From contig OZ024743.1 in the NCBI GenBank assembly GCA_964016885.1, forward strand, positions 188,356,001 through 188,420,000: a DNA stretch of 64,000 bases. The letters are read 5' to 3'. A program made the position numbers and the translations under genes. The stretch's first letter is position 1; each line of letters begins with the position of its first letter. Shown piece after piece: positions 24,001 through 48,945 of the stretch. This DNA comes from Eledone cirrhosa (Eukaryota). The notes beneath the pieces were generated by a model. It saw only the letters and a program-made list of their open reading frames with translations. It did not search any database and was not told the origin of the DNA.

Positions 24001-24203
24001 ATAGGAACAAGTAGGACACCGACGGCTGAGCTCAAGCCATTTCGACGGCTAATTCTGGACTTGATTTTAGTCCAGAATTAGCCGTCGAAACGGCTTGAGC
24101 TCAGCCATCGGGGTCCTACTTGTTCCTATTACCCACTCTACTACCCTAAGTATTGAGTACTTTGGTGGGTCCATCTGGTTCCTTACCACATTTCCTTCGT
24201 TAT
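24001..24203 (+). mobile_element. Family F1 foldback insertion (3' half of a hammerhead plus tail)
   Basis: ~60-bp inverted arm (24001-24061) pairs with 24068-24129, followed by tail tacccactctactaccctaagtattgagtac...cttcgtta; TA runs on both sides. Confidence 0.85.
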
Positions 24204-26640
24204 ATACATATATATCTATATATCTATATAGATATATATATATACAATTATCAATGTGTGCATTGATTAATGCTTCTTATTTTACAATAGAAACACTTAA
24301 TACTTTAAGTAAATTATTAAATTTGAAATGTTAGCATTGATGATAATTATTTCAATTTTGTGAAGCTAAACTGTAATTTAAAAAGAAAAGAAAAACAAAT
24401 TTGTAATAATACTAAGCCCTTTTCTGATTTTTGCATGTATCATTTTATTGATTTGTTGGCATTTTTAAACCTAGGGTACTTTAAATTTGTAGAAATATAT
24501 TAGAGATAAATTAGGTAATACTATTTATTTGGTTAGAATTTCTTCTCACATATAAGAATTAGTAGAAATTAAAGACTCACAATGAGAAACAGGATATTGA
24601 GATTTGAAATTCTGATTCGCTCTCTGAATTTGTAGGCTTTGTGAAATGGTGAGGGCATAGTCAGAGAAAAGGACATGAAACTATATGTATGTGAGTGTGT
24701 GTGTGTATGTTGTACACCTGTCTATTTGATTATATATTTATTTAATCAAATATATTTATTTGACAAACTAGAAGAGGTGCCTAATAACCCTTACGATTAA
24801 GAAACAAAAGTATGAGAGAAGAAGAGAGAGTGAGTAAGAAAAATGAAAAAATGAAAAAAAAGAGAAGGTAAACAAGGCAAATGAAACAAAAATAAGGAAA
24901 AGTGTGAAAAACAAAGACTGCTATAAAGCAGCTAAACGGTTCTATTGTTGAATCTATATAACTATATGCATATATATCTATCTCTATGCTTATGCACATA
25001 TATATATATATATATATATATATATATATATATATATATATATATATATATATATACAGTGTGTGTAGTCATGAAACATAAATCTCTCTTTTGTGTAGGC
25101 CTGAGTAAAGAATAATGTTTATTGGTATTATGTTTAAGTCATTCAATTTAGAGAAAATATAATAGATGTGTCTAGATAAATAAGATGCGATATTGAGGCA
25201 AATACTCAACTAATCAGTGATAAATAATGGAATACCAGGTCGTTAAGATGACTTTTGTTATAAAGTATTATATCAAAAGAGGTCTTGAAGAATTTTATTG
25301 TTATAAAAGTTTAACTTACAAATTAAACCAGAATATAAAGACTCTTCACCATAATTCTCCTCCCTGCATAACATCTATTTTACATTCTTGCAGGAGTTAG
25401 ATTGGCTGTCATGTTATGAGATTAGATAGGCCAGGTGATTGTGTCTTGCTCATACACTCATTCTTTTGCTTGTTATTTTTTACAAATGGTTGGATGTACT
25501 TTCTAATGCCAACCATCTTTGTGTGTGTATTGGGAGCTCTTTTTTGTGGTACCAGCACTAACACTTTGCAGGATGAAATAGCTATTTTTTGTTGTGGCTC
25601 CAGCATGACCACTTTACAGGTTTGATGGAGTGATTTGTGTTGTAGCACCTGTGTGATCACCTTATTATCATGGAAGCAGTACCACAACCTTATACGGTGG
25701 ACTGGGTGCTTTTTTTGTCATAGTACCAGTATGAACACCTTATGGCAGTTAATAGTTACTAATAGTATTGAAGAAATGCATGTTGAAAATCTTAGAGTAT
25801 TTAGATTCTAAAGATATAAATCTAGGATATTATTTAAATATAAAAAAAAGAAGAGAATTGCATACAAGTAAGGCCAGAAGTGTGGCAGATGAGCCAGTTG
25901 CCATGGGGCATTACCTGCCTCAAATTTATGCTTTTATATTTTCTTCAGTTAATTCTAAATACATTGTATGCACTATATATATATATATATATATGATATG
26001 GCTGTAAACCATACATTAATCATTAATCATATATACTCATATATACTCAAGACTGATTTCTAAAATACTTACTGAGCCATGAGAAATAAAGCATAGAATT
26101 TGGATCTGATACCACTATTTCATGGGCCTGATTGTAGTTAATTGATATACCTTATGAAGGTTCTTCTAGAAAACAGCATGAATGTCAAACAAATTTACTT
26201 GAATGTATGGAGTTGTATCTAAGCATATTAAATTTAATATTAAAATTATTTATAATATTAAAGAGAGTGGAAGGTGTAGGATAGTGGGGGTAAATAGTAG
26301 ATGTTACTAAATAATAAAAATGATTGCTTTAATGTAAATTAATGTGAGACATATTCTTCATAATTATTGTTTAATGTTTATTTTCAATGATAGCATGGTT
26401 TAGATGGCTTTCATCCATTAGAAGCAAATTGGTTCGAGTGACTGTGTCTCGCTCATATAGGACTGTTTCTGGCTGGATGCCCTTCCTAAAGCCAACCACA
26501 TTTAGAGTCTGTGCTAGGTGCTTTTTGCCATGTCTCCTACATGAACACTTTACAGTATAGTCTGGGTGCTTTTTGTCGTGACACCTACACGAACACTTTA
26601 CAGTGTGGGCTGGAAACTTTGTGGTACCAACATAATGTAT

Positions 26641-27820
26641 ATAATATAAAACGAAAAATCAGTGATGCATCTGAACTCAATTTATTGTGATACAATTGTT
26701 TCGCCGGCAGACAGCTCGAGATACGATCATTGTGTGGATCTGTCTGATTCTGGAACTGCAGGGTCGTTGGACACTTCTAATAATTTTGAATCAAATTTTC
26801 TCACTGGGGTGTTAGCGTCAAAAAACATTCTCTTCGCTCGTCCTGCTATTGGCTGTTGTTTTTCTACGTCATCATAAATTTTGACCAATAGGTACTGTTA
26901 CACTGACCATCAGCTGTCATTCTTCCTGCCATACTTCAATGAATCCCTGCTAGGTTTGGTAGTTCACACGTCCACGCGCGCACTCACACATACATTTATA
27001 TATATATACACACACTCAAACAATCATATAAATAACAACATCCGCACGCATATACTCCCGCTATACATACGCACCCAAAGAGAACCCGTACAACTATAGA
27101 CATACGCGTATATCTATATATGTGTGTGCGTGTGCATGTCTATGTATATGTCTGTACGTGTTTGTGTATACGAGTAGATATACGCGTATGCATGTGTGTG
27201 CACCTGTGTGTGTGTGTGTGTGTGTGAGGTGATGTACGTGGGTATGTAGGCAGGCCTCTGTAGACGCGTATGTCTATAGTTTTACGAGTTCTCTTTGGGT
27301 GCGTATGTATAGCAGGGAGTATATGCGTGCGGATGTTGTTATTTATATGATTGTGTGAGTGTGTGTGTGAGTGTGTATATATATATATAAATGTATGTGT
27401 GAGTGCGCGCGTGGACGTGTGAACTACCAAACCCAGCAGGGATTCATTGAAGTATGGCAGGAAGAATGACAGCTGATGGTCAGTGTGACAGTACCTATTG
27501 GTCAAAATTTATGATGACGTAGAAAACAACAGCCAATAGCAGGACGAGCGAAGAGAATGTTCTTTGACGCTAACACCCCAGTGAGAAAATTTGATTCGAA
27601 ATTATTAGAAGTGTCCAACGAACCTGCAGATCCAGAATCAGACAGATCCACACAATGATCGTGTCTCGAGCTGTCTGCCGGCGAAACAATTGTATCACAA
27701 TAAACTGAGTTCAGCTACATCACTGATTTTTTGTTATATATTATATTACACTGTGCTCTGTAAGAACATAGAGTGCTCAACCGGCATACCGCCTATGGAA
27801 GCATCTTAGCTACCATCAGA
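26641..27820 (+). mobile_element. Large foldback insertion, probably PLE 3' end with inverted pLTR
   Basis: 26641-27110 is the reverse complement of ~27263-27748; the ORFs at 26881(+) and 27505(-) start identically. A unique tail runs 27750-27820, then (CA)n(TA)n. Contains GAAA-C-AATT-G-TA. Confidence 0.8.
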
Positions 27821-46954: not shown

Positions 46955-46965
46955 ATATATATATA

Positions 46966-48945
46966 GTAATAATAATAAATGTGAAGACTAAAATCCGAAG
47001 AGAGCTCGATAAGGATAATATATATATCGAAATATATAAAACCATAGAGCAAATATTTATTAAAATAACAGATTGAAGTTTAAGCAAAGAATCGTCGCTT
47101 TCACCCTTAACGGAATCTTCTGAAACTAAAAACAAAATCAGTCTGTGGACGCAGAAGTAAATATTTCGAAACACGTTGCAACAGAAGGAAAACAGGAAGA
47201 CGATACTTTGGTTCGTGAAGACGTTCCCTGTCAATGAACGGAAAAAAAGCGAAGATAATACGTTGGTCTGTGCAGCGTTGAGAACAATTACACGCAAAGA
47301 CAAAATACCAATACCACGTTTATCGTATAAATGGAGTCATTAGACTAATGTTCTATTTAGGAAACTGAATGATTCTCAACTCCGGAGTTAAGAATAATGT
47401 AAATAAATTTGTTGAACGAAAATGGCAGAGGTTATTAAAATCGTAAAAGTAATGATATTTAAGACTTATACAATTATATACATACATGCACACATCTATA
47501 TACGTACATACACGTCCATACGCAACAACGCACGCCGTACGTACATGCACTTGCACACCTACATATACCCGCACACATACGAACGTATACACCAAATACA
47601 CATATGTGTGTATTCAAATAATTATATATACATATATAAATATGCACACATATATACATATATAACACGCACATACATACCTACACATAAATACACGTAT
47701 GTTCAACAATCATACATATACCAAAATCATATGTACACATATACATAACATACATACGTGCAAACACACATACACATTCATACATACCCATATATACAGA
47801 TACATACATATATGTGTATACAAATAAATAGAAACATATATATATATATACACTTACATGCATATACATACATACACCAACTCATACATATACACAACAA
47901 TAATCTATATCTATCTATATATATATATATACATACACATACATAAACATATACATAATACACATACATACACACATTCCCATACATCCACACACATAGA
48001 CACGCACACACACACACACACACACACTTATACATATATATATATATATATATATATATATATATATATACACATACACATATACGCATACATATATACG
48101 CACAAACACGTAATACACTTATACACACATATAATATAACCACACATACATATAATATACACCTATAACATATACAAGCATATATACGTACGAAAAAGTA
48201 TACGCACCTATACAAATAAGTAATGGTATAAACATAAAATATACTTAGCTACCACATCAAGGCGTAAATTATTCGCAAATTGTTCGTACTATCCGTTAGG
48301 GTATAATGTAGGGCTGTAATACAGGAAAGCTTTATGCAATTTATGTTTACAAGCCGAAATTGCCTCAGATTTTTTGTTTAAGATGAGACCATTGGCGTAG
48401 AGTATTTCCAAGGCTTCAGGCACAAAGATCGCATGGTCTTTTGCTTCCGTTATACGATCTAGCTCTAGCTAGGATCACCCAGTGTTCCTATATTGGGCGT
48501 GGTTGTCTTTTAGACTCCAGATATAAGCTGAAAGTGACGTCATGTTCCTTCTTAAAGGGTTAAGAAAAGAATGGGTGTGCATGTAAAGACGCTGCTTGAA
48601 TCTATTGGCAGTTAAACCTATGTAGGCCCTACAAGACGTGGGTGTGTCAACCTTACATTTTTAGACAATATTACTGACAATATTGTCTTTGCGTCTAATT
48701 GTTCTCTATGCGCAACATAACCACGTATTATCTTCATTTTTTTCCGTTCATTGCCAGGGAACGTCTTCACGAACCAAAGTTTTTTCTTCATGTATTCCTT
48801 CGGTTGCAACGTTTTTTGAAATATTTACTTCTGCGTCCACAGACTGATTTTGTTTTTAGTTTCAGAAGATCCCGTTAAGGGTGAAAGCAGGGTGAAAGCA
48901 GCGATTCTTTGCTTAAACTTTAATCTATTATTTTAATAAAAATTT
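46966..48945 (-). mobile_element. Second, older Naiad-type element with inverted pLTR
   Basis: 48300-48675 translates (with stops and frameshifts) to KCKVDTPTSCRAYIGLTANRFKQRLYMHTHSF...TSLSAYIWSLK...CDLC...ILNKKSEAISACKH. 48682-48945 is an inverted copy of ~47055-47303. Small pieces of the same family lie at 32857-32952, 40650-40745, 42670-42820 and 49035-49090. Confidence 0.9.

What the first reader, a model, noticed from the sequence alone, without database searches (positions are those of the whole stretch)
24001..48945. One asymmetric foldback insertion geometry shared by at least six unrelated (TA)n-targeted families
Seen: insertions at 24001, 26641, 27883, 32445, 34073, 35709, 46350, 46502 and 46966 consist of a direct arm ending in a family-specific tail and an inverted arm that stops before the tail. 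Both outer ends abut TA runs, and the central junction varies in position. In family F1 the inverted arm ends at the same 'ttccta' in four independent copies (24001, 27883, 34073, 46436). The smallest copies (46350-46436, 32857-32952) are only the two termini joined head to head. Established: PLEs often carry an inverted truncated pLTR and a short tail, and some clades target microsatellites. Inference: two fixed ends with a variable centre fit twin priming, in which both nicked strands of the self-complementary (TA)n target prime cDNA at two defined RNA positions and the products are joined. This would yield MITE-like palindromes without a transposase.
Basis: partly seen in the sequence, partly recalled or inferred. 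Interest (0 to 1): 0.75.

Follow-up and report, generated by a model that had tools for sequence, protein, structure and literature searches.

The report
Twin-primed Hydra Penelope insertions
These mirror-image inserts in TA repeats are truncated copies of related Penelope-like jumping genes, a shape already described; almost every two-armed copy pairs one long end with one short end, which likely means both cut DNA strands start copying the same RNA at two fixed points.

Summary
The geometry is real at all nine sites and genome-wide. The families are not unrelated and none was shown to be a Naiad: five of six join homologous Hydra-clade Penelope-like ORFs; the sixth is a non-coding tandem unit. 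The shape (inverted truncated arm, one-sided tail, TA targets) is published, and two RT start sites bounding the tail plus both-strand extension were shown in vitro for another PLE. This scan reached twin priming before, in this genome and others. Measured here: in the young family F4 (2,205 exact end motifs), 52 of 53 readable two-armed loci pair a tail end (A) with a tail-less end (B), 23 of 23 in an unbiased sample. In 27 of 47 neither arm contains the other, which excludes simple foldback. All 51 junctions analysed differ; arms share private variants; 21 of 61 B ends show re-priming repeats. Most likely mechanism: coupled twin priming on one RNA (0.68). An F4 copy with an open full-length frame makes this testable.

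The parts
24001..24201 (+). F1 insertion: inverted B arm 24001-24060, 8-nt spacer, direct arm 24069-24128, tail 24129-24201
26639..27822 (+). F2 insertion: B arm 26639-27112, A arm 27261-27738, tail about 27739-27822, then (AC)n and (TA)n
27883..28295 (+). F1 insertion interrupted by another repeat at about 27942-28140
31398..31563 (-).
32446..32806 (+). F3 insertion: B arm 32446-32538, A arm and tail 32637-32806; duplicated at 40277-40629
32857..32952 (.). F6 stub: shortened B arm joined to a tail-only A arm; duplicated at 40649-40745
34074..34245 (+). F1 insertion with a deletion in the direct arm; duplicated at 41869-42040
35710..39345 (-). F4 insertion, young Hydra-type PLE: A arm 38765 to 35710 (5'-truncated ORF, 3' UTR, pLTR, tail), B arm 38766-39341, arms 99.65% identical
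35710..35870 (-). F4 tail, 161 nt, between site B (35871) and site A (35710); opens with a predicted bulged hairpin
35913..35960 (-). F4 predicted minimal hammerhead variant; predicted cut 46 nt upstream of site B; activity untested
   Evidence: motif read from sequence; stem II and flanking stem fold, z -2.88; position
37322..38767 (-). 5'-truncated F4 ORF: RT C-terminal part, CxCx5C linker, C-terminal GIY-YIG (Pfam E 0.016, below cut-off)
39342..39350 (+). Short repeat of the last bases of the B arm before the (TA)n run (reiteration at site B)
42669..42814 (-). F6 single A arm, no inverted partner seen
46352..46436 (.). F1 stub: tail-only A arm (46352 to about 46381) head to head with a B arm ending at 46436
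46502..46953 (-). F5 insertion: A arm with about 35-40-nt tail at left, B arm ending 46953; family is a ~575-nt non-coding tandem unit
46966..48944 (-). F6 insertion: A arm 48680 to 46966 with endonuclease C-terminus and 3' UTR, B arm 48680-48944
48310..48681 (-). Broken F6 endonuclease fragment, 32% identical to F4 residues 706-830
49036..49089 (.). F6 short arm between two TA runs, ending about 13 nt short of the family B site

Best explanation
These are 5'-truncated, head-to-head insertions of (TA)n-targeting Penelope-like retroelements, five families of the Hydra type, and they likely form by coupled twin priming: both nicked target strands prime cDNA on one RNA, one at the tail end (A) and one at the tail start (B). 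Shown: two fixed outer ends, one-A-one-B pairing, independent inner extents, short microhomology at the join, near-identical arms. Inferred: the element's nuclease nicks both strands of (TA)n; each 3' end anneals to a TA-containing motif at A or B; the A-primed cDNA either stops inside the tail (non-overlapping stubs) or displaces the B-primed cDNA (overlapping arms); when both run to the RNA's 5' end or to one block the junction is near-symmetric; the two cDNA ends are joined through microhomology and filled in.
For: F4: of 61 head-to-head loci, 52 are A/B, 1 is A/A, 0 B/B, 8 unreadable. In the first 100 exact site-B matches on contig C1, all 23 opposite-strand pairs are A/B; chance at one half is 1.2e-7, although 1,071 of 2,205 motifs end at B. 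Of 47 non-tandem A/B loci the B arm reaches further 5' in 27 (9 with a tail-only A arm), the A arm in 16, equal in 4. 51 of 51 junction pairs differ; 37 show 1-9-nt overlap. Junctions within 15 nt of symmetry: 9 of 38 against 1.1 by permutation, p 1e-5. Arm divergence within a locus averages 0.49% against 1.05% between loci (n=40); 24 variants in 15 loci are private to a locus and present in both arms. Reiterated terminal bases at 21 of 61 B ends, 0 of 79 read-throughs, 4 of 73 A ends. F1 unbiased sample of 30: 20 A/B, 1 B/B, 0 A/A, 9 cut, single or other (read by eye). PMC11167929: a Poseidon protein nicks and extends both strands, and its two RT start sites bound the tail.
Against: No intermediate was observed; all evidence is from finished copies. 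Single-armed copies are common: 9 of 23 fetched B-ended and 6 of 17 fetched A-ended unpaired matches had no second arm of 20 nt or more, although several keep remnants of a few to about 25 nt. Exceptions: A/A in L097 (F4), L269 (F5), L035 (F3), L165 (F6); B/B in L419 (F1). Shared private variants could come from conversion between arms or unsampled source copies; they show no A-to-G excess (2 of 24). L206 arms differ by 5.7%. Near-symmetric junctions also fit foldback. In PMC11167929 both strands used the same start sites in vitro and starts lacked target homology, so the coupling is not reproduced there. F1 same-junction copies are slightly closer than others (0.130 vs 0.173, p 0.014).
Confidence: 0.68

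Rival explanations
1. Twin priming, but on two separate RNAs from one source locus held by one complex, with the A/B asymmetry set by the protein.
For: Avoids strand displacement over arms that overlap by up to 2.3 kb; tandem units occur on both sides of L131; arm lengths are uncorrelated once near-symmetric cases are removed (rho -0.12, n=25); no RNA-level mark proves one molecule.
Against: Excess of near-symmetric junctions at many different positions (9 of 38 within 15 nt) and private variants shared by both arms are simpler on one molecule.
Confidence: 0.14
2. Foldback or self-priming: one cDNA starts at A, turns back on itself, is resolved at B by the nuclease, and later central deletions make the centre variable.
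For: Self-priming is the published proposal (PMC3846280, Discussion passage); nuclease resolution is offered for the tail (PMC8557442, passage); arms are near-identical and 13 of 38 junctions lie within 60 nt of symmetry.
Against: Needs a one-sided deletion in 27 of 47 loci of a family mostly 97-100% identical, up to 3.5 kb; 9 loci share no sequence between arms; B-ended single arms exist; B ends carry re-priming repeats.
Confidence: 0.1
3. Pre-formed palindromes spread as units (MITE-like), at least in F1.
For: 510 F1 short-centre palindromes match exactly genome-wide; among the first 50, one junction occurs 9 times, two others 5 times each; same-junction copies are slightly closer (p 0.014).
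Against: The commonest junction occurs in both mirror orientations relative to the tail (5 and 4); grouping by junction length gives no signal (p 0.44); F4 junctions are all distinct; ends are asymmetric and long arms lead into RT/EN ORFs, not a transposase.
Confidence: 0.06
4. Long-read foldback or assembly artefact.
For: Perfect palindromes next to long TA runs are a known artefact class (recalled).
Against: Arms differ by 0-16% with family age; the structure is kept in both copies of a local duplication; strand-switch joints of the F4 family appear in raw Illumina reads of run X24 (5 joints, 1-2 read starts each).
Confidence: 0.02

Closest known systems
EN+ PLE insertions with inverted 5'-truncated copy and one-sided tail (PMC8557442 Fig. 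2 legend and text; PMC3846280 Pen2a; passages read)
   Same: Head-to-head arms, tail on one end, partial tandems, microhomology joins, microsatellite targets.
   Different: Those papers describe the tail as optional or often one-sided and give no counts in the passages read; they propose self-priming or nuclease resolution. Tails here are about 35-161 nt against 30-40 nt.
Hydra clade PLEs, e.g. Hydra-1_Obim (PMC8557442 section 11 read whole; supplement rows and protein start seen)
   Same: C-terminal GIY-YIG, RW[KR], DKT, CxCx5C, CxxC and CxH, no CCHH, (TA)n target.
   Different: F4 unit is about 4.2 kb against usually under 3 kb; hammerhead cores are variants; six 12-13-nt family motifs were not found in the supplement (weak, lines are wrapped).
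Poseidon PAc in vitro system (PMC11167929, main text parts 1-2 of 4 read)
   Same: Two start sites downstream of the hammerhead bound the tail; both strands extended.
   Different: Different clade; starts there lack target homology, here both starts sit at TA-containing motifs; the paper does not model inverted insertions or A/B coupling in the parts read.
L1 twin priming (recalled; not read here)
   Same: Second nick primes internally; inverted segment joined by microhomology.
   Different: In L1 the internal site is variable and the arms barely overlap; here it is fixed and arms can overlap by kilobases.
Naiad clade (PMC8557442)
   Same: (TA)n bias, inverted copies, tail.
   Different: Naiads have an N-terminal endonuclease; F1, F2, F3, F4 and F6 have it at the C-terminus.

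Membership tests
Hydra-clade PLE (F4) | Single ORF with RT followed by C-terminal GIY-YIG | tested here: met
   832-aa stop-to-stop frame in L094, L111, L113, L117, L122 with YRDD and a C-terminal YVG...Y motif. Pfam support is weak: GIY-YIG E 0.016 on the window fragment, no RT hit on the full ORF.
Hydra-clade PLE (F4) | RWK-like and DKT motifs, CxCx5C linker, CxxC and CxH, no CCHH | tested here: met
   RWR, DKT, C-N-C-x5-C, CNLC and CQH read in the translation against PMC8557442 section 11; N-terminal part resembles Hydra-1_Obim by eye.
Hydra-clade PLE (F4) | Placement in an RT phylogeny with reference Hydra elements | not tested
   Reference proteins were seen only in a supplement and could not be entered into the tools.
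Hydra-clade PLE (F4) | Hammerhead in the pLTR | tested here: inconclusive
   Variant core with stem II; local fold z -2.88; no Rfam hammerhead hit in the window at E up to 1.
Hydra-clade PLE (F4) | Length generally under 3 kb | tested here: not met
   Unit 4,189-4,201 nt; the paper gives this as a tendency.
Hydra-clade PLE (F1, F2, F3, F6) | Terminus collinear with a C-terminal Hydra-type endonuclease | tested here: met
   F1 L398, F2 L245 (with L247 for continuity), F3 L253 and L254, F6 window and L260; 32-44% identity to the F4 endonuclease, up to 49% in RT. One or two loci per family; no full ORF.
Non-autonomous PLE (F5) | Head-to-tail short units with pLTR, tail and PLE-type ends | tested here: inconclusive
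   About 575-nt tandem unit with A and B ends at (TA)n; no linked ORF in 30 loci, no clear hammerhead; partner unknown.
Naiad | N-terminal GIY-YIG before RT | tested here: not met
   Endonuclease follows RT and precedes the 3' UTR; F5 not testable.
MITE | Symmetric terminal inverted repeats and uniform internal structure | tested here: not met
   Ends asymmetric; arms range from stubs to over 3.8 kb, some in tandem; 51 of 51 F4 junctions distinct.
MITE | Target-site duplication | not testable with these tools
   Hidden inside (TA)n; no empty site obtained.

The most novel reading that the evidence does not exclude
Hydra-type PLEs insert by an obligately asymmetric two-site reaction: one complex reads one RNA from both ends of the tail at once, guided by a hairpin just after site B, and in F1 both cDNAs run off a capped 5' end, so MITE-like palindromes and new microsatellite repeats are written afresh at each insertion.
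Probability: 0.4. Interest if true: 0.7.

Novelty: new member of a known kind. Interest (0 to 1): 0.45.

Why it matters
How PLEs make inverted arms and the one-sided tail is an open question; PMC8557442 names it as the next task and PMC11167929 leaves the later steps unvalidated. The counts here separate the models: coupling of ends, arms that are not nested, and re-priming marks at B favour two primings over foldback. F4 is young, abundant and has open full-length frames, so it offers the first Hydra-clade test substrate with predicted start sites. In practice, many short palindromes in this genome should be annotated as PLE stubs, not MITEs or hairpin RNA genes.

Tried and rejected
Rfam scan: 61 weak matches, none reaching its family's gathering score, no hammerhead. 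Pile-up of arm ends at the predicted F4 hammerhead cut (-46): none; nearest -41, -40, -40; the F1 hot spot lies 40 nt upstream of its predicted cut. A-to-G editing signal in shared variants: 2 of 24, rejected. A seeming B/B locus (L133) was a point change in the tail. A seventh family (42480-42658) was dropped: all 28 copies from outside the window run on past the window's end point. F5 ORF: none in 30 loci. F1 hammerhead fold by minimum energy: z 0.21, no support; the call rests on motif and stem pairing only. Sequencing runs: no RNA holder listed. Literature searches: 'twin priming' + 'Penelope' gave 3 papers, none on PLE mechanism by title and abstract; searches gave no further mechanistic paper; subscription papers are not covered. 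PMC13282606 passages hold nothing on this geometry. Supplement text of PMC11167929 had no match for four terms; its figures were not visible. No dimer prediction or protein database search was run. L129 was left out of the junction statistics as internally rearranged; L230, L233, L240 and the 3' end of L212 fell below the alignment filter.
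Full report
Observation. All nine insertions are present as described. The masked window gives 27 local inverted alignments against 0 in each of 20 shuffles. 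Four F1 copies end their inverted arm at the same hexamer; a fifth at 31398-31563 ends about 34 nt short. Three of the cited copies sit in a 97%-identical local duplication. I call the tail end site A and the tail-less end site B.

What the families are. The insertion at 35710-39345 (F4) carries a truncated ORF with a C-terminal GIY-YIG-like domain. Genome copies give a 4.2-kb unit with an 832-aa stop-to-stop frame bearing RWR, DKT, YRDD, CxCx5C, CxxC and CxH and no CCHH, which are the Hydra-clade marks of PMC8557442 section 11. Pfam does not confirm the RT and no tree was built. Long arms of F1, F2, F3 and F6 lead into homologous endonuclease or RT fragments at 32-49% identity, in one or two loci each. 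F5 is a non-coding unit of about 575 nt in head-to-tail tandems with no ORF found in 30 loci. So five families are relatives with dissimilar termini, and none of them is a Naiad. Hammerhead-like motifs precede B in F1, F3 and F4; they are predictions.

Outer ends. F4 has 2,205 exact site-B motifs; 1,071 are not followed by the first tail base. The first 100 matches on contig C1 contain 23 opposite-strand pairs, all A/B; independent choice at one half gives 1.2e-7. Over all fetched F4 stretches and the window there are 61 head-to-head loci: 52 A/B, 1 A/A, 0 B/B, 4 with an end outside the stretch and 4 cut by other sequence. Part of that set was chosen by a tail query, so the 23 is the clean figure. 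In an unbiased F1 sample of 30: 20 A/B, 1 B/B, 0 A/A, 3 cut, 3 single, 3 other (by eye). F2, F3, F5 and F6 show the same two ends in 30 loci each, with scatter and a few A/A cases. Single-armed copies are common: of 23 B-ended unpaired matches, 10 had a tailed partner and 9 none; of 17 A-ended ones fetched, 5 had a B arm and 6 none. Several 'single' copies keep a short remnant of the other arm.

Inner junctions. Of 47 non-tandem A/B loci, the B arm reaches further 5' in 27, the A arm in 16, and 4 are equal; in 9 the A arm holds only tail. When B reaches further and A holds the tail, neither arm can be copied from the other, so plain foldback fails unless large one-sided deletions are added. 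All 51 junction pairs differ; 37 overlap by 1-9 nt, 4 are blunt, 10 have inserts. Near-symmetric joins are in excess: 9 of 38 within 15 nt against 1.1 expected (p 1e-5); outside these, arm lengths are uncorrelated. Arms of one locus differ by 0.49% on average against 1.05% between loci (n=40), and 24 private variants are shared by both arms. This points to one source, probably one molecule, but conversion is not excluded and no editing signature was found. Reiteration of the last bases occurs at 21 of 61 B ends and none of 79 read-throughs, as expected if B is a priming site with slippage; slippage during joining is the alternative.

F1 is different at the centre. 510 short-centre palindromes match exactly; in the first 50 one junction appears 9 times, in both mirror orientations (5 and 4). 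Same-junction copies are a little closer (p 0.014), but not when grouped by length (p 0.44). Across 216 arm readings, partly from junction-biased sets, 90 end at -60 or -61 from B. Among 42 ending at -61, nine have a G before the start that the script did not assign to the partner arm, against one A; by eye about eight of these are untemplated, and most of the 11 unassigned C cases fit the partner arm or its extra G. This suggests run-off at a capped 5' end, at a motif resembling an initiator (recalled, untested). The numbers are small, and some re-copying of finished palindromes is not excluded.

Mechanism. Most likely (0.68): both strands of (TA)n are nicked; one end primes at A and the other at B on one RNA; the cDNAs stop separately or together and are joined by microhomology. 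Both-strand nicking and extension, two start sites bounding the tail, and a predicted dimer are reported for a Poseidon protein in PMC11167929. The coupling, single-RNA use and joining step are inferred. Rivals: two RNAs from one source (0.14), foldback plus deletion (0.10; PMC3846280), spread of pre-formed palindromes (0.06), artefact (0.02; raw reads of run X24 show 5 strand-switch joints of the family with 1-2 starts each).

Novelty. The shape is in print (PMC8557442, PMC3846280). My searches found no paper that states twin priming for PLEs, within a library that lacks most subscription papers. The scan itself has reached this reading many times: 29 notes in at least 12 genomes held all my search words, and several concern this genome. 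I had formed the reading before the look-up. Those notes are unchecked and not independent support; two of their leads (stops at the ribozyme cut, A-to-G marks) were tested here and not seen. The value of this locus is the quantitative test on a young family and a usable Hydra-clade protein. Papers seen: PMC11167929 main text parts 1-2 of 4 and a supplement search; PMC8557442 passages, sections 11 and 15, supplement rows; PMC3846280 and PMC13282606 passages.

Noticed in passing
window 31603-34588 and 39374-42383: Local duplication at 97% identity enclosing the F4 insertion and a LINE fragment; an inverted copy of the block's first 50 nt lies at 35367-35414.
   Followed up: partly
window 42480-42658: Inverted copy of 39998-40148 with a 34-nt foldback between TA runs; other genome copies of this family run on and form a tandem non-coding unit, so it may be a local rearrangement.
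   Followed up: partly
window 45589-46058: 470-nt palindrome (232-nt arms, 99%) without TA runs; it translates to what looks like a mariner transposase N-terminus (recalled, not searched). A different origin from the PLE palindromes.
   Followed up: no
window 31603-31865, 39374-39637, 28327-28414: Another TA-flanked family with a canonical minimal hammerhead motif; likely a further PLE.
   Followed up: no
window 94-732: Further Hydra-like RT fragment on the minus strand, 52% identical to F4 residues 282-493.
   Followed up: no
L180, L185, L186, L199, L202, L204 (F2 tail ends): The F2 tail is followed by (AC)n of very variable length before (TA)n, which may be repeat synthesis at site A; a possible microsatellite source.
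   Followed up: partly
window 34757-35366: 3' fragment of a CR1/L2-like LINE on the minus strand, ending in a 10-nt tandem repeat at a TA run (family name recalled).
   Followed up: no
window 8742-10058 and 8997-9482: Degenerate direct repeat with a short frame that resembles a restriction-like endonuclease of a non-LTR element (weak Pfam hits only).
   Followed up: no
window 1049-1139, 31249-31306, 57845-57882: Small palindromes not assigned to a family.
   Followed up: no
L208, L142, L131, L242: Up to four or more reiterations of the terminal bases at site B, and three at site A in L242, resembling telomerase-like repeat addition.
   Followed up: partly
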